The notes beneath the pieces are model-generated. The model was not told the origin of the DNA. It made no database searches and was given only the letters and a program-made list of their open reading frames with translations. Below, in pieces: positions 31,183 through 43,520 of a stretch of 64,000 nt of DNA (positions are counted from its first letter, which is position 1; the number at the start of each line of letters is the position of its first letter). The stretch is from Sulfurimonas sp. GWF2_37_8 (lineage in GTDB: Bacteria > Campylobacterota > Campylobacteria > Campylobacterales > Sulfurimonadaceae), in contig MIBW01000008.1 of NCBI GenBank assembly GCA_001829625.1, forward strand, positions 65,455 to 129,454, in the 5' to 3' direction. A program made the translations under genes and the position numbers.

Positions 31183-32880
31183 ATGAAAAACATTCTGGAG
31201 GAGTATAATATGCAAAAAGATAAATGTATTTCTAAAATTAATTTAGACGAAATTCACTCTATCAATTATAAAACCAATACAGATTTACTAAAAGCCATTT
31301 TAGAGAGTTCTCCTAATATTATCGTTTTTGCTCTCGATACAGAGTATAATTATTTGGCTTTTAACTATGAGCATAAAAATGTTATGCAATTTATCTGGGG
31401 CAAAGAGATTGAACTTGGTATGAATATGATTGAAATCATCGCGAGAGAGGATGATCGACAAAAAGCGAAAGATTTTTTTGATAGAGCCATTAGGGGAGAA
31501 TATTTTATAAATGAAACAGAATATGGAAATGAAGCTTTGTCTAGGAAGTTTTGGCGAACCTATTATTCACCTATTTATGAGGATAACAAAAAAGATGTTA
31601 TTGGTCTGACATGTTTTAACCTAGACATCTCTGAACAAAAGTACAATGAAAGACAACTCTCTTTAGCCGATTTGGCATTAAATATTATCACAGATGCAAT
31701 TTATCTAATAAACGAAAAATATAAAATTATCTATGTTAATCAAGCTGCTTGTGACATGCTTGGGTATTCCAAATCAGAACTGCTTAGTAAAATGATTTTT
31801 GATATTGATCCGTTGGTAACGCCAGATGAAATAAATATCACTAAACAAACTACACTAACGAATAAAGTAGTACAGTTTGAAACGAAACATAAACGTCAAG
31901 ATGGTTCGATTTTTGATGTTGAAATTATCACATACCCCTATATGGATGGAGAGTTTTGTTTAAGCGTCGTAAAAGATAGTACAGAACGGAAAAAGAATGA
32001 AGAAAAACTAAAACTTCTGGCAAGCGTCTTTACCAGTGCAAAAGAGGGAATTGTTATTACTAACACAAAAGGGATAATTGTTGATGTGAATGAGGCATAC
32101 ACACTTATTACTGGGTATTCAAAAGATGAAATTGTAGGTCAAAATGCGGGATTTTTAAAATCAGACAAACATGACAAATCATTTTATAAAAATATGTGGA
32201 ATGAATTAATTCAAAACAAATATTGGATTGGGGAGATATGGAACAGACGAAAAAATGGGGAAATTTTTGTCGAAAGGCTTACGATATCTGCTATTAGTGA
32301 CTCGAATTCGAATATTTCCAGTTACGTGGGATTATTGACGGATATAACAACGGGGAAAGATTATGAATCTACCTTGGAGCGAATGGCTTTTTATGACTCT
32401 TTGACGGGATTACCGAATCGATTGTTGTTTGCTGAGAGGATCAATCAAGCAATGATGTTTTCAAAACGTTTAAAAACTATCATTGCAGTTTGCTATTTGG
32501 ATTTAGATGCATTTAAACCTGTCAATGACTGTTTTGGGCATAGTGCAGGGGATAAGTTGCTTATTGAGATTGCGAGACGTATGCAAAATCATGTTAGAGA
32601 GAGTGATACGGTAGCTAGAATAGGTGGAGATGAATTTGCAATATTGCTTTTAAATATTAATAGTATTGAGGAGTGTGAGAAGATTATTAGTAAAATGCTG
32701 GTCAGTATTAATGAAACATACATTCTCCCAAATAACAAAGGTGTTAATGTAACCGCAAGTATCGGAGTTGCCCTCTATCCGCAAGATAATGTAGCTTCCG
32801 ATATTTTACTCCGTCATGCAGATCAGGCGATGTATTTGGCAAAAGAGAGTGGGAAAAATAAGTATATATTTCACACATGA
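31183..32880 (+). CDS. Multi-PAS diguanylate cyclase
   Basis: Three PAS-like segments; YDSLTGLPNR, RESD I-site, intact GGDEF. Confidence 0.92.
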   Translation: MKNILEEYNMQKDKCISKINLDEIHSINYKTNTDLLKAILESSPNIIVFALDTEYNYLAFNYEHKNVMQFIWGKEIELGMNMIEIIAREDDRQKAKDFFDRAIRGEYFINETEYGNEALSRKFWRTYYSPIYEDNKKDVIGLTCFNLDISEQKYNERQLSLADLALNIITDAIYLINEKYKIIYVNQAACDMLGYSKSELLSKMIFDIDPLVTPDEINITKQTTLTNKVVQFETKHKRQDGSIFDVEIITYPYMDGEFCLSVVKDSTERKKNEEKLKLLASVFTSAKEGIVITNTKGIIVDVNEAYTLITGYSKDEIVGQNAGFLKSDKHDKSFYKNMWNELIQNKYWIGEIWNRRKNGEIFVERLTISAISDSNSNISSYVGLLTDITTGKDYESTLERMAFYDSLTGLPNRLLFAERINQAMMFSKRLKTIIAVCYLDLDAFKPVNDCFGHSAGDKLLIEIARRMQNHVRESDTVARIGGDEFAILLLNINSIEECEKIISKMLVSINETYILPNNKGVNVTASIGVALYPQDNVASDILLRHADQAMYLAKESGKNKYIFHT

Positions 32881-32911
32881 ATGAATGTGCAGTGTATAAT
32901 GCACTTTAAAA

Positions 32912-33001
32912 GCATAGAGTGTAGATTTTATAAGCGGGGTAGATAGCACTGATGATAAGGCTAGTGAGCTTTATGTTCGTTGTGTGAGAGCAGAACAGTA
33001 G
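32912..33001 (+). pseudogene. Orphan 3' end of an Lcl/DUF1566 gene (decayed variable-region copy)
   Basis: Reads A*SVDFISGVDSTDDKASELYVRCVRAEQ*, collinear codon-for-codon with the last 30 codons of the genes ending at 40197 and 40837. Confidence 0.8.
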
Positions 33002-33189
33002 TTTGGATTTTGGTCATTGCTAGTCGAAGACGAAGCAATCTAATTTAATTTAGTGCGTAATGAAAATTGTTCTACCTAAAAAATAATAGCCAGAGGGGTT
33101 ACTAAGTCCTTCCTCGTCACTGCGAATGCAATGAAGCAGTCCACTGCGTAAAAATAGATTGCCGCGCTTCGCTCGCAATGACAAAACTT
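32972..33189 (+). repeat. Direct repeat copy 1 (matches 40808-40945 plus 41187-41301)
   Basis: Shared blocks such as AGTCGAAGACGAAGCAATCTA, AAAAAATAATAGCCAGAGGGGTTACTAAG and TAAAAATAGATTGCCGCGCTTCGCTCGCAATGACAAAACTT. Confidence 0.92.
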
Positions 33190-33239
33190 TTTCGCTCATA
33201 ATGACAGGGCTCTTGCATCATAAGGGAAAAATAATTTAT

Positions 33240-33291
33240 GAAATATATTTCTTATTAAATTAAAAATATGCTATTGTATGAAATATATTTC
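33240..33291. promoter_or_regulatory. Two palindromic operators upstream of the hipB-like gene
   Basis: Perfect palindrome GAAATATATTTC at 33240-33251 and 33280-33291. Confidence 0.7.
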
Positions 33292-33307
33292 TCATTTAGG
33301 ATACAGT

Positions 33308-33553
33308 ATGACACTTCAAGAGTTAGGTTTAGAGATAAAACTTCTTAGAAAAGCAAAAAAATGGTCGCAAGACGATTTGCAAAATTACTCGGGAATCACT
33401 AAACGCACCATAAGTAAAATTGAAAATGGCTTTGTTGAAGAGATTGGTATTAAAAAAGTTGAGACAATTTTAGCCTTGTTAGGCTACGAGTTTTCTCTTC
33501 GAGAAAAAGGGCGACCAAGAACATTAGAAGAGTTGCAAAATGAACGAAAATAG
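33308..33553 (+). CDS. hipB: XRE/HTH antitoxin (HipB-like)
   Basis: LRKAKKWSQDDL...TISKIENG HTH; overlaps hipA; start at 33308 inferred. Confidence 0.8.
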   Translation: MTLQELGLEIKLLRKAKKWSQDDLQNYSGITKRTISKIENGFVEEIGIKKVETILALLGYEFSLREKGRPRTLEELQNERK

Positions 33554-34691
33554 TCTCAAAGTCTTTGTAAACAAGCAATATTCAGGTAATTTGACACATG
33601 AAGATGAGCAGTTTGTTTTCAACTATACAGATTCTGCAGAGTCTGTAGTCTCTTTGACCATGCCTAAACGCAGGGCTAGTTGGAACTCTAAAAAACTTCA
33701 TCCTATCTTTGAGATGAATATGCCAGAAGGTGCTTTAAGAGAAGCTATCAAAAATCACTTTGCAAAAATTTACAAGATGGATGATTTGAACTTTTTAAAA
33801 CTTATAGGTCCCTATGTATTGGGACGCGTAAAGTTTAATGAAATCATTGAGACAAAAGAAAATCTCAAACTTGATGCTATTTTACATAGTCCTAAAGAGA
33901 GACTTTTTGAAGAACTGATGCAAAAATTTGCCATTCGTTCCGGTGTTTCAGGGGTTCAGCCGAAGCTCTTGCTCACGGCTCAAAACAGAACTACCATGAA
34001 GTTTGAGCACTTCATAGTGAAATCTTGGGAAGCTTCCTACCCGCAGCTTGCACTCAATGAATACTTCTGTATGCGGGCCATCCAAAATGCCAACCTTCCA
34101 ACGCCAGAGTTTTATCTCAGTGATGATTTGTCTATGTTTATTATGAAACGCTTTGACATCAACGAAGATGAAAGTTACCTTGGTTTTGAAGATATGTGTG
34201 TTTTGAGTGCAAGAGGTACGGATGAAAAATACAACGGAAGTTATGAAGAGATAGTGCGAATCATAAAAGATGTAGTTGTGCCTCAAAAAAGAAAAGAGGC
34301 ACTTCGTGTCTTCTTTGGGGCACTTATTATGAACCATTTGCTGAGAAATGGCGATGGGCATTTGAAAAACTACGGTGTTTTGTATGAAAATGATTTTGAA
34401 GATACAAGACTTGCTCCAATTTACGATGTCATAACGACAACCATATACATACAAAATGACATTCCTGCACTTAAACTTAGTGATGGAAAAGTCTGGTTTA
34501 AAGAGAAAACGTACAAAGATTTTGCAACAAAAAGTTGTGGACTCATGACAAAAGAGTACCAAGAAATAGTACATATTTGCTACAACGCAATACTAAAGAC
34601 AAAAGAAGAGATAGATGCATATAAGAGCACAGACAAGGAAGTATCGGCATTTTTACAAAAGCTAAAAGATGCTTGGATGGAGAAAATATAA
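33540..34691 (+). CDS. hipA: HipA family kinase toxin
   Basis: SLTMP/MPEG N-domain, SGVQPK, NGDGHLKN, LAPIYD. Confidence 0.92.
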   Translation: MNENSLKVFVNKQYSGNLTHEDEQFVFNYTDSAESVVSLTMPKRRASWNSKKLHPIFEMNMPEGALREAIKNHFAKIYKMDDLNFLKLIGPYVLGRVKFNEIIETKENLKLDAILHSPKERLFEELMQKFAIRSGVSGVQPKLLLTAQNRTTMKFEHFIVKSWEASYPQLALNEYFCMRAIQNANLPTPEFYLSDDLSMFIMKRFDINEDESYLGFEDMCVLSARGTDEKYNGSYEEIVRIIKDVVVPQKRKEALRVFFGALIMNHLLRNGDGHLKNYGVLYENDFEDTRLAPIYDVITTTIYIQNDIPALKLSDGKVWFKEKTYKDFATKSCGLMTKEYQEIVHICYNAILKTKEEIDAYKSTDKEVSAFLQKLKDAWMEKI

Positions 34692-34699
34692 GGGGATTT

Positions 34700-34808
34700 A
34701 GATTGCTTCGTCGTTCCTCCTCGCAATGACGGCGTTTGTGTCATCGCGAGCAAATCTTCTGTCATCGCGAGCAAACCTCTCGTCATTGCGAGCGAAGCGC
34801 GGCAATCC
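34700..34808. repeat. Cluster of REP-like palindromic units (GTCATTGCG...GCAATC / GATTGC...CGCAATGAC)
   Basis: One reverse unit, two partial GTCATCGCGAGCAAA tandem copies and one full forward unit. Confidence 0.8.
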
Positions 34809-34941
34809 CGTTCCTCCCCAATCACAAAATGTGTAATTTTGAAACAAATAAAAAATCTACAACACAAGCCTCTACTGTATCAATTTATATACAATTGCAA
34901 TCCGTTAAAATAATACAAAATTTAACAAAAAAGGTTTTTAA

Positions 34942-37900
34942 ATGAAAACTGTTATCAAAAAATTATTTAGAGGGAGAGAGTTACTAGTTAAAGCACTACT
35001 CTTTATGATTGTGCCGTTTGTCATGATTGGCTGTAGCGGCGGAGGGGGAAGTTCTGATGCAGTTAGAGGTACACAGTACAATACAGGTGTTTTTTTAGAC
35101 AGTGCTGTAGAAGGTGTAAAATATAAAACTTCTTCTGGACTTGAAGGGTATACAAATATTAAAGGTGAATATCAGTATAAAACTGGAGACACAGTTGAGT
35201 TTTTAGTTGGAGATGTGTCTTTAGGAGAAGTGAATGCTAAAGATTTAGTTTCGGTTCTGGAACTTGATAGTGCTATTGAGGTTATGATGCTTTTACAAGC
35301 ACTAGACGATGATAAAAATCCAGATAATGGCATCAACATATCTAAAGAAACATTTAAATTGTTTACAAGTTCTGGTATTGATGTCAGTACTGTTAGTCCA
35401 GATGATGCAGATTTTTTGGCAAACTTTGAAAGTATTGCAAAAACTCCATTTGCTGTAAATTCAAACGATGCATTGGAGCACGCAAACTATTCGCTTATGT
35501 TAGAAAACTTAAAAGCAGTTAGTGAAAATCTTTATGATTATTATGTAGGTAATGTAAATATATATAATAATAATCCAATGATAAATCAAACCCTCTTGCA
35601 AACATCATCAACCAAAAGAGTTGCTCTTTATCACTATGCGTATGTAACGAAAATTGAACTTTCCCTTATGCAAATGAATGCCAAAGCAAGGATAGATGGT
35701 GATTTTGATTCATTAGAGTTACGCAGAAAAGCTATCGCAGATGCTGCAACAATTATGACTGAATCCCTTGCATTAGCAGCAAAAGACCCAAAAGATTTTT
35801 CTGTAGCACTTCATTTAGTTGATAGAACTAAAGACTATGCATCGGGGCAGCTTTTAGAGCATGGACAAAATATTATTGACGAGCAGTTTCCAAATGTTCC
35901 TGATGAAATAAAACAACCTTTATTTAGTGCGGTACAAAATGTATACTCATGTGCAGAAATGTTTGCAAAGCCTGATATGTCAAGTAAGTTAGGTTGTGCT
36001 ACTGCATTGGGAGCTGACGCCCTCAATATAGTAAATGATGCCCATTCATCTTGGGAGCTTTACGCATCTTCAAAAGCGTTAAACACGTTAACTGTTTTAG
36101 ATACTTATCTTACAGAGTATTTTTTAGCTGGTGAAGATTTAAACTTTTTGTACCAACGGTATGGTGTTAGTAGTGAAGAAGCTCTCATTGAAAAGTTAAA
36201 ATCAAAAGTTGGTGATTATAGCTTTGATTCAACATTATTCACAACACTAAAAGGTAACTTTATAGGTTCAGTTCGCAGCAAAACAGTTGACTACTTTAAC
36301 AAATACGGACTAAAGTATAACTATGATGTCGGTCAAAATATTGCTCTAAGTCCTCGCATTACAAAAGGAAAATATAATGTAGAAGATAATGCATTTTCCA
36401 TCTGTTATACAGCAAGTAATAGTTCTTATTTTTATCTGCAAAATATCTCTTTAAAAGTAGATATTTTTGATGGGGCTTCTACTCTTGGGGGTAAACAAGT
36501 CTCAATACCCTCAATGGGGCAAAGAAGTTCTTTGAATGAAAGTTGTATCAATATTCCACTCAATACAAATGTAAGTTTTAACAACAACTATTTTACGGCA
36601 AAAGCGACATTCAATTATACCGTCGAGAGTGTAGTAAATACAGTAGAAGCTTCACAAGTTATTTATCTATCTGAGGGAGATATTTTTGATATTTTAAAAC
36701 AGAGTGCTTATCCAAATGTTGTCATTGATACAACAGCAAGAGTAAAAGACAATGATGCATTGTTGATAACGGCATTTCAAAGCCATGTTGACTCTTCTCA
36801 GGGCACTTTGCTTTTTAACTGGAAGCAGGTAGATGTAAATGGGTATGAAGTAATTATACAAAATGCAACAACGCATACCCCAAACATCGCATTACCTTCT
36901 CTTCCTAGTGGCATACAGCAAAAAACTATATGGTTAGAACTAACTGCAACGGCTTCTTTAAGCAAAAAACAAACCATAAAAACAGTTAAAATTGTTGTTG
37001 ACTCTTCTATGGAAGCAAACATAGAACAACCCACAGCAAATGCTGGTATAGACGCCACGATAAACCTGAATGAAACTTACAGCTTTCACGCAACTAACGC
37101 AAATGTAAAGTACACAAAAGGTGACGAGAACATAGTCTGGATTTGGCTAAATGGAGCAGGAGAAATTATTAGTGGTGAGCAGGATTTTAACTATATTTTC
37201 AAAACACCTGGAAGTTATATATTTACACTTGAAGTAAGTGATAGTAATGTTTATAATGAAAATATCATCAGCAGAGATACTATCTCTATTACTGTAAATG
37301 GAATTGCTACTGAAAACAACGTACCGCAAGCCTCATCTCAGAGTGTTGGCTTGAGTGAGGGTGAATCTAAATTACTTACTCTTGCTGCAACGGATGCAGA
37401 TGCCGATAACTTGAGTTACCTAGTCGTGTCGCAGCCGTCTCATGGCACACTTAGTGGAGTCGCTCCTAACTTAACATACACTCCATATGTAGGCTATAGC
37501 GGAAGCGATAGTTTTACTTTCAAGGCTAATGATGGCAAAACAGACTCCAATGTTGCGACAGTGTCCTTAAATATTGCACAACTTTTATTTAAACAGATTG
37601 CGTTTATGAGCGAGTCTGCTCCGCTTGACAATAGTGTCATAGAAAGAGGAAGTAATTTTACAAAAACTTGGACATTTAAAAACAGTGGTAACCTTGACTT
37701 GGCAAGTGTGCATGTCGTCACCGTTAGTGCACCTACGGGGCTTCAAACAAGCGTGACTCAAAACGTTAACGGTTCGTTGGCGCAAAACGCTCAAACAAGT
37801 TATGCTTTAAGCATTGATGTACCGAGCTCTCTTGCTGAGGGAACGTATGAAGCTACGTTTAAACTTGCAGATGCAAACGGAGACTTGAAATACGCAAATG

Positions 37901-40197
37901 GTAATACAGCTGCTTTTTCTTATAAATTTGTAGTGGCAAAACCAAATGATTTTAAAGCACTTGCGTATCTTTCTTCGACTGTGTATCAGATGGGTGAAAA
38001 TGCTTTGCTGAGCATAGTCATAAACGATGGAAACAGCCCATATACTGCAACTGTCAGCTGGGGAGATGGGGCAACAACAACACAAGAGATACCAACAGCT
38101 TCTAATGCCATAAACCTTGCCCATGCTTACGCAAGTACAGGAAGTTATGTTGTAAATACGCAAGTAGTCGACGTAATGGGACAGAGTGCGAATGTTTCAA
38201 ATACACTTGAAGTGCTAGATGGAGTACAAAGCGTGACAAAATGGAGTGTTTCGGGGGCAAATCTTGAAACAAATACAAACACGCAAAATGTTCCTGTAGC
38301 AGTTACAGCACAAGATGGTTATGCAACGTATGATACATCTTGGACACCTCAAGAGAGTAGCCTTGATTATTGGCTGGCGTATAAATTGCCTGTGCCTGAT
38401 GGTGTATTTAAAATGAATAGAAAAATGCGTCTCACACTCGTCTCTAAAGCAGGAGAACTGCAAGACCACGACCGCGTTTTAACCTATGCTCTTTCAAATG
38501 GGAAAAGTTATGCCTATAACATTATGAGTAATATAAACGACGGGAGTGGATTTATTCGTACAAAAGATTTTCAAGGAAGTGACACAAAACGAGATGTAGC
38601 TTCGCTTACAGATAACGCTCTTGGTGTAATGATAAATCAACGAGCTTATGCGATTGAGAGTAGTTATGGCGGTACTTCCAACAGCGCAACACTGAGTGCA
38701 TTCAAATATGAAAACGCGACCTATACTCTTTTAAGTGGTTCAGGTACAGAACTAGATGCATCCGCAAGCCTCAAAGAAATAGCTATTAACTACAAAGGAA
38801 ACGGGACTTCTTATCTTCTCTTTTTAGAGTACGACAAAAATGGTGATGGCGTTTATAGCAGTGAAGAGAAAATTATTCTCAACACACAAACAATGGATGT
38901 TGACTGGTCTGCGTTTGTAGATGTTACACAAGAGGATATATCAGCAAAATTGCTAGATAAATCTTTCTACCAAAATTATTGCGGAAATGTGAGTGCTTTA
39001 ACATTTACAAGTGGCGGAGTAATAATAAACATAGATAGCGATGGAAATGAAAGTTCGCAAAATTATCGTATAGAGGGAAATACTCTTTATGTTGATTTTG
39101 ATCAGGGGGAAAAGGCTATTGTATTTCTAGAACAAACATCTGATTACATTAAAATGAGCTACGGTGCACCGATGTATTATAGTCAAACAGTAGCCCAACA
39201 AAACCCTGAAAATAGTGACTGTTCAGACACGTCAAACACTAAAGAAGCTATCAGTACCACATTAAATTGGAGTGGAACAATTCAATTTTTGGATGAAAAT
39301 AACAACCCTATAGCAATTCCATCGGATGCAAAATTGCGTATAACCCCTGATGTAGAACAAGTAGACGGAGCTTGGGGTGGCTTTGATATTATAATCAATA
39401 GCGATGGAACATGGAATACAAATACAGTTTATCCAAACACAGAAATGAACTTAACCAACTTTACATCTGCGCATACATATCAGTTTGCGGTGTATGCGGA
39501 TAGTAATAATAACAATAATTGGGACTCTACGGAAAAAGTTTATGGAGGGTTTATAGAAAACAATCCTTCTGAAGCTTTACTAAGTGATTTTAATAACCAA
39601 ACAGTTATGGTAACCATAAATACAACAGTATTGCAACTAAGTCAGGTGGTTGTCAAAAAAACAGGACAAACTAAAAGTTATGACGCAAATGGCAACGAAG
39701 TTACAGATGGAAGCCTAAAAGATGATGGTTACTATCAAAAAGGACTTACACAAAGCTACACAAGAGCCTCAGACACCGTCACAGATGAGCTCACAGGACT
39801 CATGTGGCAAGATGATGCAGCGGCAGCTTCAACAGCAAAACAGTGGCTTACAACCGATAACTACAACACATGTTCCAACGATACTTCATCCCCAGCATGT
39901 TACGACACCAGCGGAGACACGGCAGCTACTTACTGCTCAGAGCTAACTCTTGGTGGCTACACAGATTGGAGACTTCCTACTTCTATAGAACTTGAAGGTA
40001 TTTTGGACTATGGCAAAGTAAATCCAGCTATAGATACAACCTATTTTAACAATGTTAGCTCTAGCAGTTATTGGAGTTCTACTACCGGTGAGGGCTTTAA
40101 GGACGGTGCGTGGGCTGTGGGCTTCAACGGCGCCTATGTGGAGTACGGCGGTAAGGACGCTAACGGCTATGTTCGTTGTGCGAGAGTAGGAGAGTAG
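34942..40197 (+). CDS. 1751-aa surface lipoprotein with Ig-like/PKD stalk and C-terminal Lcl (DUF1566) domain; putative DGR target 1
   Basis: Lipobox MIGC; PKD/Big-like repeats; NBR1-Ig-like FTKTWTFKNSG; TGLMWQ, DWRLP, YWSST...YVRC. Confidence 0.85.
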   Translation: MKTVIKKLFRGRELLVKALLFMIVPFVMIGCSGGGGSSDAVRGTQYNTGVFLDSAVEGVKYKTSSGLEGYTNIKGEYQYKTGDTVEFLVGDVSLGEVNAKDLVSVLELDSAIEVMMLLQALDDDKNPDNGINISKETFKLFTSSGIDVSTVSPDDADFLANFESIAKTPFAVNSNDALEHANYSLMLENLKAVSENLYDYYVGNVNIYNNNPMINQTLLQTSSTKRVALYHYAYVTKIELSLMQMNAKARIDGDFDSLELRRKAIADAATIMTESLALAAKDPKDFSVALHLVDRTKDYASGQLLEHGQNIIDEQFPNVPDEIKQPLFSAVQNVYSCAEMFAKPDMSSKLGCATALGADALNIVNDAHSSWELYASSKALNTLTVLDTYLTEYFLAGEDLNFLYQRYGVSSEEALIEKLKSKVGDYSFDSTLFTTLKGNFIGSVRSKTVDYFNKYGLKYNYDVGQNIALSPRITKGKYNVEDNAFSICYTASNSSYFYLQNISLKVDIFDGASTLGGKQVSIPSMGQRSSLNESCINIPLNTNVSFNNNYFTAKATFNYTVESVVNTVEASQVIYLSEGDIFDILKQSAYPNVVIDTTARVKDNDALLITAFQSHVDSSQGTLLFNWKQVDVNGYEVIIQNATTHTPNIALPSLPSGIQQKTIWLELTATASLSKKQTIKTVKIVVDSSMEANIEQPTANAGIDATINLNETYSFHATNANVKYTKGDENIVWIWLNGAGEIISGEQDFNYIFKTPGSYIFTLEVSDSNVYNENIISRDTISITVNGIATENNVPQASSQSVGLSEGESKLLTLAATDADADNLSYLVVSQPSHGTLSGVAPNLTYTPYVGYSGSDSFTFKANDGKTDSNVATVSLNIAQLLFKQIAFMSESAPLDNSVIERGSNFTKTWTFKNSGNLDLASVHVVTVSAPTGLQTSVTQNVNGSLAQNAQTSYALSIDVPSSLAEGTYEATFKLADANGDLKYANGNTAAFSYKFVVAKPNDFKALAYLSSTVYQMGENALLSIVINDGNSPYTATVSWGDGATTTQEIPTASNAINLAHAYASTGSYVVNTQVVDVMGQSANVSNTLEVLDGVQSVTKWSVSGANLETNTNTQNVPVAVTAQDGYATYDTSWTPQESSLDYWLAYKLPVPDGVFKMNRKMRLTLVSKAGELQDHDRVLTYALSNGKSYAYNIMSNINDGSGFIRTKDFQGSDTKRDVASLTDNALGVMINQRAYAIESSYGGTSNSATLSAFKYENATYTLLSGSGTELDASASLKEIAINYKGNGTSYLLFLEYDKNGDGVYSSEEKIILNTQTMDVDWSAFVDVTQEDISAKLLDKSFYQNYCGNVSALTFTSGGVIINIDSDGNESSQNYRIEGNTLYVDFDQGEKAIVFLEQTSDYIKMSYGAPMYYSQTVAQQNPENSDCSDTSNTKEAISTTLNWSGTIQFLDENNNPIAIPSDAKLRITPDVEQVDGAWGGFDIIINSDGTWNTNTVYPNTEMNLTNFTSAHTYQFAVYADSNNNNNWDSTEKVYGGFIENNPSEALLSDFNNQTVMVTINTTVLQLSQVVVKKTGQTKSYDANGNEVTDGSLKDDGYYQKGLTQSYTRASDTVTDELTGLMWQDDAAAASTAKQWLTTDNYNTCSNDTSSPACYDTSGDTAATYCSELTLGGYTDWRLPTSIELEGILDYGKVNPAIDTTYFNNVSSSSYWSSTTGEGFKDGAWAVGFNGAYVEYGGKDANGYVRCARVGE

Positions 40198-40200
40198 TTT
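40056..40200 (+). repeat. Putative DGR variable region 1
   Basis: Ungapped match to 40696-40840 with 35 mismatches, 33 of them at codon positions 1-2. Confidence 0.8.
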
Positions 40201-40208
40201 TGATTTTT

Positions 40209-40268
40209 GTCATTGCGAACGAAGTGAAGCAATCTATGCGTTCAGATTGCTTTGTGCCTCGCAATGAC
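40209..40268. repeat. REP-like hairpin immediately after VR1
   Basis: GTCATTGCG...AAGCAATCT-N8-AGATTGCTT...CGCAATGAC. Confidence 0.8.
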
Positions 40269-40446
40269 GGAAGAAGATGTCATTACAAGAACCAAAAAAG
40301 GTAAAATGAGCCTTGAAGAGATAAAACAATTTTTGTCTATCCAAGCTTCATTTGTAGGGCATATAAAGCACGCAAATAGCTATAACTTAATGAAAAAAAT
40401 AGGAGTGATAAATGAGAGTAATCCTTTTGATTATAATAGGGCTTAG
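40269..40446 (+). pseudogene. C-terminal remnant of a DGR-type reverse transcriptase
   Basis: GKMSLEEIKQFLSIQASFVGHIKHANSYNLMKKI resembles the S(W/Y/F)xGHxKHA(N/D)(S/T)Y end of DGR RTs; no catalytic YxDD region remains. Confidence 0.7.
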
Positions 40447-40837
40447 CCTGCTTCATGCAGAACTAACAAGAGATAGTGCTACAAGCGTAGTGAGCGATAG
40501 TGTGAGTAGCTTGCAGTGGCAAGATGATGTGATTGGTAGCACCATCGCATGGCAAAGCGCAATAGACAGATGTGAGAATTTGGTTTTAGGTGGGCAGAGT
40601 GATTGGCGACTACCAAATATCAATGAGTTAAAAACTATTATAGACAGAAGCAGAGCAAATCCAGCTATTGCAATGGCATTTACACATACACAAACTAGCT
40701 CTAGCTATTATTGGAGTTCTACTACCAATGAGAACTATAAGAACAATGCGTGGTATGTGTACTTCGGCCGCGGCGCTGTGAACAACGGCAATAAGAGCAA
40801 TAACTATTATGTTCGTTGTGTGAGAGCAGGACAGTAG
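40412..40837 (+). CDS. Secreted stand-alone Lcl (DUF1566) protein; putative DGR target 2
   Basis: AGGAG RBS, signal peptide, LQWQD, DWRLPNINEL, YWSST...YVRCVR. Confidence 0.88.
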   Translation: MRVILLIIIGLSLLHAELTRDSATSVVSDSVSSLQWQDDVIGSTIAWQSAIDRCENLVLGGQSDWRLPNINELKTIIDRSRANPAIAMAFTHTQTSSSYYWSSTTNENYKNNAWYVYFGRGAVNNGNKSNNYYVRCVRAGQ

Positions 40838-40840
40838 TTT
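40696..40840 (+). repeat. Putative DGR variable region 2
   Basis: Partner of 40056-40200; retains many AAC/AAT codons. Confidence 0.8.
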
Positions 40841-40954
40841 AATTTTTGTTTTTGTGAGTCGAAGACGAAGCAATCTAGCTTAGTTTAGTGCGTAGTGAAA
40901 ATTGTTATATCTAAAAAATAATAGCCAGAGGGGTTACTAAGCCCTCTGTTTTGA

Positions 40955-41017
40955 TTAATGTAGAGCGGGCGTGAACACCATCAGCACTAAAAAGACTATT
41001 ATTATCCGAGAATACAT
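40955..41017 (-). CDS. 20-aa hydrophobic peptide, candidate type I toxin (Ibs-like)
   Basis: GAGAAAGG RBS 6 nt before ATG; MYSRIIIVFLVLMVFTPALH*; hairpin CAGAGGG/CCCTCTG downstream. Confidence 0.65.
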   Translation of the reverse strand: MYSRIIIVFLVLMVFTPALH

Positions 41018-41072
41018 ATGTGACCTTTCTCGAAAAATCCACTCCCACCCCTACCGTGCTAAAAAAATTAGC

Positions 41073-41114
41073 AAAAAAAAAGGGTCAAGACCCGAAAGTC
41101 TTAACCCCATTTTT
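41073..41114. terminator. Bidirectional intrinsic terminator in the candidate type I TA module
   Basis: 11-bp stem at 41082-41107 with a UUCG loop on the minus strand; 9-U tail on minus, T-run on plus. Confidence 0.7.
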
Positions 41115-41162
41115 CGATAGTCTGGTAGTAAATCAGACAGTTACATATGTATTTCGAGAGAA

Positions 41163-41171
41163 AGTATAACA
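41163..41171 (-). promoter_or_regulatory. Extended -10 promoter (TGnTATACT)
   Basis: Minus strand reads TGTTATACT, preceded by a T-rich tract. Confidence 0.55.
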
Positions 41172-41304
41172 TAAAAAATAAAAATTCCTTCCTCGTCATC
41201 GTAAACTTAAGTCGCACTCAATGAGACTAAAGTCTCATCTCCAAGAAGCAGTCCACTGTGTAAAAATAGATTGCCGCGCTTCGCTCGCAATGACAAAACT
41301 TCTT

Positions 41305-41394
41305 GTCATTCCGTACTTGATACGGAATCTCCGTTAGTCTAAAGAAGTAGCTGCGTTTTCACACATGAGACCCAGAACCCAAGTTCAGGGTGGC
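41305..41394. repeat. Second REP-like family (GTCATTCCG-ACTTGAT-CGGAATCT type), two degenerate arms
   Basis: GTCATTCCGTACTTGATACGGAATCT and AGACCCAGAACCCAAGTTCAGGGTGGC; related to 46884-46909. Confidence 0.6.
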
Positions 41395-41405
41395 GGGTTG
41401 GGAGT

Positions 41406-43520
41406 TCAGGGTGCGGGGGTTGTGTAGATGAGACTCAATCCCACTTTTCCTTTTTCCTGGTCGATGGAGACAACCTCTATTTGTGGAAGAAATTGGTTGA
41501 GTGAGAGTACTTCTAGTGGGTGGGTTATGCGTTTGGCGCTCATTTTAGAGATGTGAATCATGCCGTCATTTTTAAGACCTATGTCCACAAATGCTCCAAA
41601 ATCGGCGATGTTTCGTACAACTCCTGAAACAAAACTTCCCTCTTTGAGCATTTTGATGTCGGTAATGCCGTCCTTAAAAGGAATGGCGAGAAGTTCTTCT
41701 CTTGGGTCGAAGCCTGGTTTTTGCAACTCTTTTATGATGTCCCGAAGGGTCTCTTTACCAATGGCGAGTTCTTTGGCTTTTTCATCTACGTTGATTGCGT
41801 TTAAGTCCAAACCTTTGAGTTTTTTAGCCGCTTCATAGCTCTCAGGGTGAACGCCGGTGTTATCAAGCGTCTCTTTCGCGTCTTTAATGCGGATAAATCC
41901 TGCCGCCTGCTCATACGCTTTTTTGCCCAGACCTTTGACTTTTAAAAGTTCATTTTTACTTTTAAAAGCGCCTTCGCCCTCACGAAACGCAATGATATTT
42001 TGCGCTATTTTTGCCCCGATGCCAGCAACAAATCCAAGCAGTGAAAGTGAGGCTGCGTTTATATCCACGCCCACACGGTTGACAAGGTCGCCCGTCACAT
42101 CGATAAGTTTTTTCTCTAAGAGTTTTTGGTCAACGTCATGCTGGTACTGTCCGATGCCCAGAGATTTGGGGTCTATTTTTACAAGTGCCGCCATAGGGTC
42201 GCCGAGACGCTGTGCGATGGAGATAGCGCCTCTGATGGTCACATCAAGCTGAGGATATTCGTCTTGGGCGATTTTTGACGCGCTGTACACCGACGCGCCT
42301 GCCTCTGAGACAACTGTGTAGTTGAGTTTTGCATTTTCTTCACGGTTAAGCCGTGCAAAGAACTCCTGCGTTTCGCGTGAAGCCGTACCGTTACCGATGG
42401 CGACTGCTTTGATGTCGTATTTTTTAGCCAATGCTAAAATCTTCTCTTTTGAGTTGTGATAATCTTTTTTCGGCTCAGTTGGGTAAATGACGGCAGAGTC
42501 GAGATATTTGCCGTTTTCATCTATGACGGCGAGTTTGCAACCACTCACAAACGCAGGGTCAACGCCTAAAATAACTCTTTTTGTTACAGGCGGAGTCATA
42601 AGCAGTTGGCCGAGGTTTTTGCCAAAAACATCAATGGCGCTGATGTCTGCTTTTTCCTTTACAATGCTTTGCACTTCGCGCTCAAGTGAGGGAAGCAGAA
42701 GTCTTTTGAGCCCGTCTTTGTAGGCATCAAAAAGAAGCTCTTTAGAACTTTGCGCATTTCGCGGGATTTTAGTGCGTTTGATGTTTTCTTCAACTCTCTC
42801 AAGGTCAATAGAAATCTTGACAGAGAGCTCTTTTTCATGTACGCCGCGCATAATGGCCAAGTAGCGGTGAGATGGGATGTGAGCCACTTTTTCGCTTTTG
42901 CCTGCAAAGTTTTTGAAGCTGCCGTTTTCATCAAAAGTTTTTGTCGCTTTGGTCTCCAGCGAGCCAAAACGCAGCATGGTGTCACGGATGCTCTCACGCT
43001 CTCTAGGCTCATCCGCATAACGCTCTGCCAAGATATCTTGAGCGCCTTTTATGGCATCTTCGACTGAGAGGACAGTTGCGTTTAGGAATTTTTTCGCCTC
43101 GCGTTTGAACTCTTCAAGCGTGAGTCTTGCGTTTTGTAAAATGTCGGCTAAAGGCGTTAAACCGTTTGCGATGGCAGTTGTCGCGCGTGTGTTTTTCTTT
43201 TCTTTAAAAGGTCTGTAAATGTCTTCTAAAACGCGAAGAGAATCCGCTTCGTCTATGCTTTTTTTGAGCTCAGTCGTGAGAGTCGCTCGCTCGCTTATAA
43301 GACGAGAAACTTCCTCTTTGCGTTCTAGGAGTTTTTTTGCGCTCATGTATATGGCTTCAAAATCACGAAGCACTTCATCGCTTGCCCCGCCCGTCATCTC
43401 TTTACGGTAACGAGCGATAAAAGGAATGGTGGAACCCTCATCTAAAAGTTTTAAAATGTTAGCAATGTGTTCTTTTTTGAGGCTTGTTTTTGAGGCGATT
43501 TGTTGTATAAGTTTGTTCAT
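41406..43520 (-). CDS. tex: Tex family RNA-binding transcriptional accessory protein
   Basis: TIPFIARYRKE, AIGNGTASRET, SEAGASVYSAS, GIGQYQHDV, C-terminal S1 domain. Confidence 0.95.
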   Translation of the reverse strand: MNKLIQQIASKTSLKKEHIANILKLLDEGSTIPFIARYRKEMTGGASDEVLRDFEAIYMSAKKLLERKEEVSRLISERATLTTELKKSIDEADSLRVLEDIYRPFKEKKNTRATTAIANGLTPLADILQNARLTLEEFKREAKKFLNATVLSVEDAIKGAQDILAERYADEPRERESIRDTMLRFGSLETKATKTFDENGSFKNFAGKSEKVAHIPSHRYLAIMRGVHEKELSVKISIDLERVEENIKRTKIPRNAQSSKELLFDAYKDGLKRLLLPSLEREVQSIVKEKADISAIDVFGKNLGQLLMTPPVTKRVILGVDPAFVSGCKLAVIDENGKYLDSAVIYPTEPKKDYHNSKEKILALAKKYDIKAVAIGNGTASRETQEFFARLNREENAKLNYTVVSEAGASVYSASKIAQDEYPQLDVTIRGAISIAQRLGDPMAALVKIDPKSLGIGQYQHDVDQKLLEKKLIDVTGDLVNRVGVDINAASLSLLGFVAGIGAKIAQNIIAFREGEGAFKSKNELLKVKGLGKKAYEQAAGFIRIKDAKETLDNTGVHPESYEAAKKLKGLDLNAINVDEKAKELAIGKETLRDIIKELQKPGFDPREELLAIPFKDGITDIKMLKEGSFVSGVVRNIADFGAFVDIGLKNDGMIHISKMSAKRITHPLEVLSLNQFLPQIEVVSIDQEKGKVGLSLIYTTPAP

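What the first reader, a model, noticed from the sequence alone, without database searches (positions are those of the whole stretch)
40056..40840. Two Lcl/DUF1566 genes carry paired DGR-type variable regions
Seen: 40056-40200 and 40696-40840 align without gaps (offset 640) and show 35 mismatches in 145 nt, although the genes upstream are very different. Only 2 mismatches fall at third codon positions. 24 have A in one copy. Six more sit at positions 1-2 of NNY codons (e.g. gct/tat, ggc/tac, ggc/cgc), which fits an A in an unseen template. Structural codons (YWSSTT, AW, F, YVRC) are identical. Known: this is the signature of DGR adenine-specific mutagenic retrohoming on C-type-lectin-fold targets. 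Inference: a 1751-aa surface lipoprotein and a 141-aa secreted protein were diversified from one AAY-rich template, roughly ...ACTACCAATGAGAACAATAAGAACAATGCGTGGAATGTGAACTTCAACAAC...AATAAGAACAATAACAACTATGTTCGTTGTG.
Basis: partly seen in the sequence, partly recalled or inferred. Interest (0 to 1): 0.85.

Follow-up and report, generated by a model that had tools for sequence, protein, structure and literature searches.

The report
Gutted diversity-generating retroelement, two frozen targets
Two genes for predicted surface-binding proteins carry the mutation pattern of a diversity-generating retroelement, but only the tail of the element's reverse transcriptase is left between them, so their variable ends are likely frozen; the same cassette is intact in some related bacteria and broken in different ways in others.

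Summary
Relatives carry the full cassette target1-avd-TR-RT-target2, spaced 1.7-2.2 kb, with near-perfect adenine-only TR/VR differences; 26 of 33 VR1/VR2 mismatches fall on adenines of a real relative TR (p=3e-8). No RT, avd or TR was found in this 83%-complete genome, and a separately assembled contig bridges the junction unchanged. So this is a two-target DGR (DUF1566/Lcl class, likely Sulfurimonas) that lost about 1.5-2 kb of machinery; past retrohoming is well supported, present activity is not. Decay is common: of 20 places in 17 of 194 genus genomes with this RT tail, 12 are decayed, 6 intact, 2 cut by contig ends. Degenerate DGR loci and two-target DGRs are published; this is a new member of a known kind.

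The parts
34942..40197 (+). Target gene 1, 1751 aa: predicted lipoprotein (Cys31 after a hydrophobic stretch, by eye), PKD, Big_9/cadherin-like and other Ig-like domains, C-terminal Lcl/DUF1566 domain
   Evidence: closest relative is the 1675-aa gene at G191:C6 (62% over 582 aa, 58% over the last 241 aa)
40056..40197 (+). VR1, variable region of target 1; carries a template-type G at 40192 in its 3' constant tail and four core differences not explained by adenine mutagenesis
40209..40268 (+). REP/MITE-like palindrome at the deletion junction (DNA hairpin -18.1 kcal/mol); related arms at 33154-33191, 34773-34807, 41266-41298 and elsewhere in the genome
40291..40446 (+). 3' stub of a DGR reverse transcriptase gene: last 51 codons (residues 317-367 of a 367-aa intact relative), no catalytic core; contains the Shine-Dalgarno (40402-40405) and start of target 2
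   Evidence: E 2e-24; 82% aa, 88.5% nt
40412..40837 (+). [quoted passage not shown]
   Evidence: (pLDDT 93.6)
40696..40837 (+). VR2, variable region of target 2; closer to the template (9 AAY codons), with the target-type C in its tail
32903..33110 (+). Context: 3' remnant of another Lcl gene plus downstream DNA, forming an imperfect direct repeat with 40808-40945 around hipBA and both targets
33278..34691 (+). Context: hipB-like HTH gene and hipA-like gene upstream of target 1

Best explanation
This is the remnant of a two-target diversity-generating retroelement: both variable regions and the tail of the reverse transcriptase gene remain, while avd, the template and most of the enzyme are missing here, so the two predicted surface-binding domains are likely frozen at the sequences last written into them. 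Steps: (1, shown in relatives) the cassette is target1-avd-TR-RT-target2, with the RT 3' end overlapping the start of target 2; (2, established DGR mechanism, inferred here) TR RNA was reverse-transcribed with errors at adenines and the cDNA replaced the 3' end of each target, which explains identical silent sites and differences at AAY positions 1-2; (3, shown) about 1.5-2 kb between the genes is gone and a palindromic repeat sits at the junction; (4, inferred) the repeat took part in the deletion, and the RT tail was kept because it holds target 2's ribosome-binding site and first 11 codons; (5, inferred) VR1 has since drifted at non-adenine sites; both proteins likely still work as fixed C-type-lectin-fold adhesins or receptors.
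For: RT stub: E 2e-24 to a full RT, 82% aa identity to the closest two; full relatives hit RVT_1 (E 9e-21) and are preceded by a bAvd/Avd-like gene. In the 20 cognate TR/VR pairs scored, 9-23 mismatches fall on template A and 0-1 elsewhere. Window mismatches: 26 of 33 on A of the L042 TR (49 A in 129; Fisher p=3.5e-8; 2.8e-9 to 5.5e-5 over 8 TRs). Codon-position pattern matches active VR pairs and is the reverse of orthologous drift. Gap between target 1 stop and target 2 start is 214 bp against 1714-2184 bp in 10 intact cassettes. A separately assembled 4243-nt contig spans 39500-40940 with no difference or gap and joins across the missing part when laid on an intact relative. No RT, avd or TR in the assembly. 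12 decayed copies in 9 genomes show the same fate with different breakpoints.
Against: The cognate TR is not available, so adenine specificity is tested only against relatives' TRs (VR2 alone is only weakly enriched: p 0.008-0.3). The genome is 82.7% complete. The runs that bridge the junction may be the source of this assembly and are shallow (word depth about 6). Non-A differences also occur in presumed functional DGRs (23% of 372, PMC5758913), so the four on VR1 do not prove drift. The role of the palindrome in the deletion is positional only.
Confidence: 0.83

Rival explanations
1. Degenerate locus still diversified in trans: a complete avd-TR-RT lies in the unassembled part of the genome or in a subpopulation and keeps rewriting VR2 (and perhaps VR1), as reported for Thiohalocapsa PB-PSB1.
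For: Genome only 82.7% complete; VR2 keeps the target-type tail and agrees with the majority template base at all four non-A core sites; trans action on degenerate loci is published (10.1101/2023.09.22.558884, section 8).
Against: No second RT tail, avd or TR-like copy in the assembly; the laid contigs show no other letters inside either VR core; VR1 has a template-type tail base and non-A changes.
Confidence: 0.07
2. Chimeric origin: target 1 and target 2 came from two sister cassettes with slightly different templates and were joined by recombination at the palindromic repeats, rather than by one deletion in one cassette.
For: All four non-A core differences and the tail G lie on VR1; N-terminal parts of target 1 are modular among relatives; repeats and a second Lcl remnant flank the region.
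Against: Silent sites are identical between the VRs (0 synonymous codons in the 114-nt core), whereas TRs of different genomes differ at many silent sites (21 of 150 nt for two of them); G191:C6 has the same target1-repeat-target2 order with the closest target 1.
Confidence: 0.08
3. No DGR history: ordinary paralogues homogenised at their 3' ends by gene conversion, then diverged under positive selection at binding residues.
For: Positive selection also enriches codon positions 1-2; Lcl genes without DGR parts exist in the genome.
Against: Cannot explain the RT stub in the exact cassette position, the fit of mismatches to template adenines (p=3.5e-8), or the same layout with TR and RT in relatives.
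Confidence: 0.02

Closest known systems
DGRs with DUF1566/CLec2 targets, category 'd' of Wu et al. (PMC5758913), exemplified by the Legionella DGR (ldtA)
   Same: VR at the C-terminus of a DUF1566/Lcl C-type-lectin-fold domain; short stand-alone targets and long targets with Ig-like stalks; avd, TR, RT in relatives; two targets per cassette (50 of 372 DGRs in that survey).
   Different: Here avd, TR and the RT core are absent; host is likely Sulfurimonas (Campylobacterota), a group not named in the main text passages I searched; RT 3' end overlaps the start of target 2.
'Degenerate' DGR loci of Thiohalocapsa PB-PSB1 (10.1101/2023.09.22.558884)
   Same: Targets with CLec VRs kept while RT or TR is missing; MITE-like inverted repeats stand where the machinery was.
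   Different: There each class keeps one complete locus in the same genome and most degenerate loci are still diversified; here no complete locus was found in the assembly, and decay is seen across many species rather than among paralogues of one genome.
Bordetella phage BPP-1 DGR (mtd-avd-TR-brt)
   Same: Gene order target-avd-TR-RT in the intact relatives; constant 3' tails that differ between VR and TR (IMH/IMH*-like).
   Different: Chromosomal, second target downstream of RT, Lcl-type rather than Mtd-type lectin fold (Z 7.8 to Mtd 1yu0 vs 13.1 to Lcl 8q4e).

Membership tests
Diversity-generating retroelement (functional) | VR at the 3' end of a target gene with a C-type lectin or Ig fold | tested here: met
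   Pfam Lcl_C in both; target 2 model pLDDT 93.6, best match Lcl C-terminal domain 8q4e Z 13.1, rmsd 2.4 over 112 residues, Foldseek E 6.5e-5
Diversity-generating retroelement (functional) | VR differs from its template at adenines | tested here: met
   Only against relatives' TRs: 26 of 33 VR1/VR2 mismatches on A of L042 TR, p=3.5e-8; 27 of 31 core mismatches at sites with A in 35-100% of 17 TRs
Diversity-generating retroelement (functional) | Template repeat present | tested here: not met
   None between the genes, none in the assembly by blastn with VRs and with two relative TRs or by a degenerate pattern; assembly 82.7% complete
Diversity-generating retroelement (functional) | Intact reverse transcriptase | tested here: not met
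   Only residues 317-367 remain; RVT_1 search 0 of 1; tblastn with two relative RTs finds only the stub
Diversity-generating retroelement (functional) | Accessory gene avd | tested here: not met
   NF033474 0 of 1; tblastn with two relative Avd proteins gave no hit
Diversity-generating retroelement (functional) | IMH at the VR end that differs from IMH* of TR | tested here: inconclusive
   At one tail position 25 of 25 VRs have C and 17 of 17 TRs have G or T in 17 TR-bearing loci; window VR2 has C, VR1 has G. That this base is the functional discriminator is inferred
Diversity-generating retroelement (functional) | Hairpin downstream of IMH (not universal: 34% in PMC5758913) | tested here: inconclusive
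   A 60-nt palindrome starts 12 nt after VR1's stop; only a weak degenerate arm follows VR2
Diversity-generating retroelement (functional) | Ongoing variation at VR adenine positions in the population | tested here: inconclusive
   Only contigs of depth about 6 were available; no other letters in the VR cores; contigs drop rare variants
Degenerate DGR locus (Thiohalocapsa type) | Targets with VRs kept, machinery missing or broken, inverted-repeat element in its place | tested here: met
Degenerate DGR locus (Thiohalocapsa type) | A complete cassette of the same class elsewhere in the genome acting in trans | tested here: inconclusive
   Not found in an 82.7% complete assembly

The most novel reading that the evidence does not exclude
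In this genus the DGR has a life cycle: the cassette diversifies two Lcl proteins, then throws out its own machinery again and again (VR-by-TR recombination, repeat-associated deletion, internal RT deletions), which locks in a chosen binding variant; the RT tail survives as the translation start of target 2, and one lineage of such frozen targets has become an ordinary conserved gene between secF and leuS under purifying selection. DGR decay would then be a route by which bacteria mint new fixed surface receptors, and this window is an early stage of it.
Probability: 0.3. Interest if true: 0.68.

Novelty: new member of a known kind. Interest (0 to 1): 0.42.

Why it matters
DGR finders need an RT with a TR/VR pair, so loci like this one would be missed; here decayed copies (12) outnumber intact ones (6) among places that keep the RT tail. 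The genus offers a graded series from intact cassette to stand-alone gene, which makes a question raised in DGR modelling work directly testable: whether hypermutation is lost by selection in stable settings (loss of RT activity is named as needing study in 10.64898/2026.02.18.706561, passages seen). It also points to a family of apparently clean two-target DGRs in free-living Campylobacterota.

Tried and rejected
TR elsewhere in the genome: blastn with both VRs and with two relative TRs and a degenerate pattern with 3 mismatches found nothing but the VRs and the remnant at 32972. RT/avd elsewhere: none. Laying the contigs of the source-like metagenome run on an intact relative's cassette at 80% likeness covered 12 of 30 bins, mostly the stub, the VRs and short pieces of other contigs; avd bins were empty; an uncovered part proves nothing. 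No RNA holder listed; the one RNA run laid nothing. VR1 as a VR-TR fusion (as at G135:C30 and G065:C8): rejected, because VR1's stop is followed by target-type downstream sequence, not by the RT start. First structure job (10 sequences, with signal peptide) gave pLDDT 54.7 and was not used. Sequence search of PDB with target 2: no hit below E 0.13. Pfam and NCBIfam do not recognise the stub alone. No IS200-like/RAYT transposase found in this genome with one relative's protein as query. Rfam: one chance-level hit (E 0.25) in 32800-41500; no tRNA in the window. Metagenome scan with target 2 gave only 2 loci. Earlier findings of this scan: nothing. G-rich substitution in VR1 (17 of 22) is at the top of the range seen in 24 cognate VRs (0.17-0.76), not clearly outside it.
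Full report
Observation. The two stretches align without gaps at offset 640: 35 mismatches in 145 nt, 17/16/2 by codon position, 24 with A in one copy; similarity stops sharply on both sides. They are the 3' ends of a 1751-aa gene (34942-40197) and a 141-aa gene (40412-40837), both with Pfam Lcl_C/DUF1566; the long one also has PKD, Big_9 and cadherin-like domains. Upstream of the repeat 14 of 29 codons for identical residues differ silently; inside the 114-nt core none does. So the 3' ends share a recent DNA source although the genes are old paralogues.

What lies between the genes. The 214 bp gap holds a 60-nt palindrome (40209-40268) and an open frame whose last 51 codons (40291-40443, stop to 40446) match the C-terminus of reverse transcriptases of relatives: E 2e-24 and 2e-23, 63-82% identity to the eight scored, 88.5% at DNA level to the two closest. 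They correspond to residues 317-367 of a 367-aa RT, so the catalytic core is gone. The stub overlaps the first 11 codons of gene 2 and contains its Shine-Dalgarno; the same overlap is seen in the intact relatives.

Intact relatives. Searches of 41 relatives, of 194 genomes of the genus and of the genome collection (34 loci, 23 analysed, the 11 distant RTs of 32-36% identity left out) gave cassettes target1-avd-TR-RT-target2. The RT hits RVT_1 (E 9e-21) and the small gene hits bAvd (E 3e-8) and NF033474 (E 6e-8, 2e-6), below the curated cut-offs. In the 20 cognate TR/VR pairs scored, 9-23 mismatches sit on template adenines and 0-1 elsewhere. The titles of the closest named records are Sulfurimonas, Sulfurovum, Arcobacter and unnamed Campylobacterota; the window's genus is inferred to be Sulfurimonas.

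Adenine test for the window. With the TR at L042:798-926 as stand-in, 26 of 33 VR1/VR2 mismatches in 129 nt fall on its 49 adenines (p=3.5e-8; 2.8e-9 to 5.5e-5 for eight TRs). Of 31 core mismatches, 23 lie where 76-100% of 17 distinct TRs have A, 4 where 35-65% do (each with A in one window copy), and 4 (40133, 40143, 40167, 40181) where 0-24% do; at all four VR2 has the majority template base and VR1 differs. Ten intact cassettes have 3 such differences in 189. VR2 alone against single foreign TRs is only weakly enriched (p 0.008-0.3). At one tail position 25 of 25 VRs have C and 17 of 17 TRs have G or T (two of the 17 loci have the same TR peptide; L091, whose template slot is itself VR-like, was left out); VR2 has C, VR1 has G. 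Twenty of 42 residues differ between the two VR peptides, while the scaffold Trp, Phe and Cys residues are invariant or nearly so in 78 homologues.

Fold. An AlphaFold2 model of mature target 2 from 78 sequences has pLDDT 93.6; best matches are the Legionella Lcl C-terminal domain (8q4e; Foldseek E 6.5e-5; Z 13.1, rmsd 2.4, 112 aligned) and other C-type lectin folds, with the DGR targets TvpA (Z 8.2) and Mtd (Z 7.8) lower. A shared fold shows no ligand; surface exposure of the variable residues was not computed.

Is the machinery elsewhere, and is the deletion real? No RT, avd or TR was found in the 1.9-Mb, 82.7%-complete assembly. The gap is 214 bp against 1714-2184 bp in 10 intact cassettes. 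A separately assembled 4243-nt contig covers 39500-40940 with no other letter and no gap and joins across the missing part on an intact relative. These runs may be the source of the genome and are shallow, so they argue against misassembly but are not an independent sample and cannot show rare variants.

How common is decay? The stub matches 20 places in 17 of 194 genus genomes. By: 6 intact (G011, G056, G076, G077, G163, G206), 2 cut by a contig end (G069, G153) and 12 decayed in 9 genomes. RT residues kept: 317-367 (G000, G088), 319-367, 334-367, 335-365, 337-367, 343-367, 1-46 plus 300-367, 1-92 plus 283-367, 1-112 plus 271-366, scattered pieces (G091:C30), and a whole RT without avd and TR (G135). 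At G135:C30 and G065:C8 target 1 runs straight into the RT start, as VR-by-TR recombination would give. G191:C6 and G111:C17 have both targets and no RT match. The query was the C-terminus, so its retention in all these is partly by construction, and most genomes are draft assemblies. On a 31-row tree of target 2 outside its VR (317 columns; G076, G206 and several named loci left out; L091 labelled intact), the label 'decayed' needs 9 changes, 7-9 in bootstrap trees and at least 3 by well-supported branches. The window's gene sits in a 100/98 clade with G153:C372 (RT residues 153-367 present up to the contig end), G191:C6 and four stand-alone genes that lie between secF and leuS, three of which keep about 30 nt resembling the RT tail; seven genes of that type differ mainly at third positions (296 of 359). 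One origin of that stand-alone gene from a frozen target 2 is inferred, not shown.

Mechanism. Established for DGRs (PMC5758913, section 3 read whole): TR RNA is reverse-transcribed by RT with Avd, adenines are miscopied, and cDNA replaces the VR from the IMH upstream. Inferred here: this happened at both targets; later about 1.5-2 kb was deleted, probably with the palindromic repeat involved (repeats also stand at the junctions in G079 and G088); the RT tail stayed because gene 2 starts in it; the VRs are now fixed. The two proteins are predicted cell-envelope ligand binders, one on a long Ig-like stalk.

Known and new. Papers seen: PMC5758913 (section 3 and passages; DUF1566 targets are category 'd', 14%; two targets in 50 of 372; non-A differences in 23%); 10.1101/2023.09.22.558884 (sections 7-8 and passages; degenerate loci, MITE-like repeats replacing RT or TR, trans action); 10.1101/2020.04.01.020958, PMC11661182, PMC8867640, PMC10686091 and 10.64898/2026.02.18.706561 (passages only). 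Searches pairing DGR terms with Sulfurimonas or Campylobacterota listed no paper on these cassettes, and the words campylobacterota or epsilon(proteobacteria) did not occur in the main texts searched; I saw no supplements, and the large DGR tables there may well hold members of this family. The names REP, MITE, IMH and lipobox are applied by resemblance, not from a library hit.

Verdict. Real, well explained, a degenerate two-target DGR: new member of a known kind. The added value is the genus-wide decay series. Interest 0.42.

Noticed in passing
window 40915-41165, minus strand (ORF 41017-40955): Conserved non-coding-looking element found in 60 of 194 genus genomes, up to 4 matches each: -10-like box, structured 5' leader, Shine-Dalgarno, a 20-codon hydrophobic ORF, terminator hairpin; 14 of 59 predicted pairs show two-sided changes in 11 copies. 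It looks like a type I toxin-antitoxin mRNA (resemblance to Ibs/AapA recalled); no Pfam or Rfam match; no paper with 'type I toxin-antitoxin' and Sulfurimonas. Antisense RNA not located.
   Followed up: partly
window 32903-33110: 3' remnant of another Lcl gene: first half resembles the end of the Lcl gene on contig C91, second half and downstream DNA resemble VR2's tail (88% over 104 nt), bracketing hipBA and both targets as a direct repeat about 7.8 kb apart. G095:C25 has a similar tail-only remnant.
   Followed up: partly
G000:C13, Lcl lipoprotein gene (L004): A long GA dinucleotide run just after the likely start puts the gene out of frame, suggesting phase variation; target 1 has a short GA-rich remnant at the same place (about 34969).
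   Followed up: no
L091:4705-4833: In an otherwise complete cassette the template slot between avd and RT holds a VR-like, adenine-poor sequence and VR1 has a template-type tail, as if the template itself had been mutagenised.
   Followed up: no
L027:132-2711 (G011:C127): Target 2 is read through into an 859-aa protein, so its VR is N-terminal/internal yet differs from TR only at adenines.
   Followed up: no
L099:4370-4850: Variant gene order TR-avd-RT in a second cassette.
   Followed up: no
VR1 (40087-40107), L039, L029, L030: Several VRs of different loci share an EG-x-x-DG-like outcome at the first variable loop; may reflect A-to-G bias, shared ancestry or selection for one ligand.
   Followed up: no
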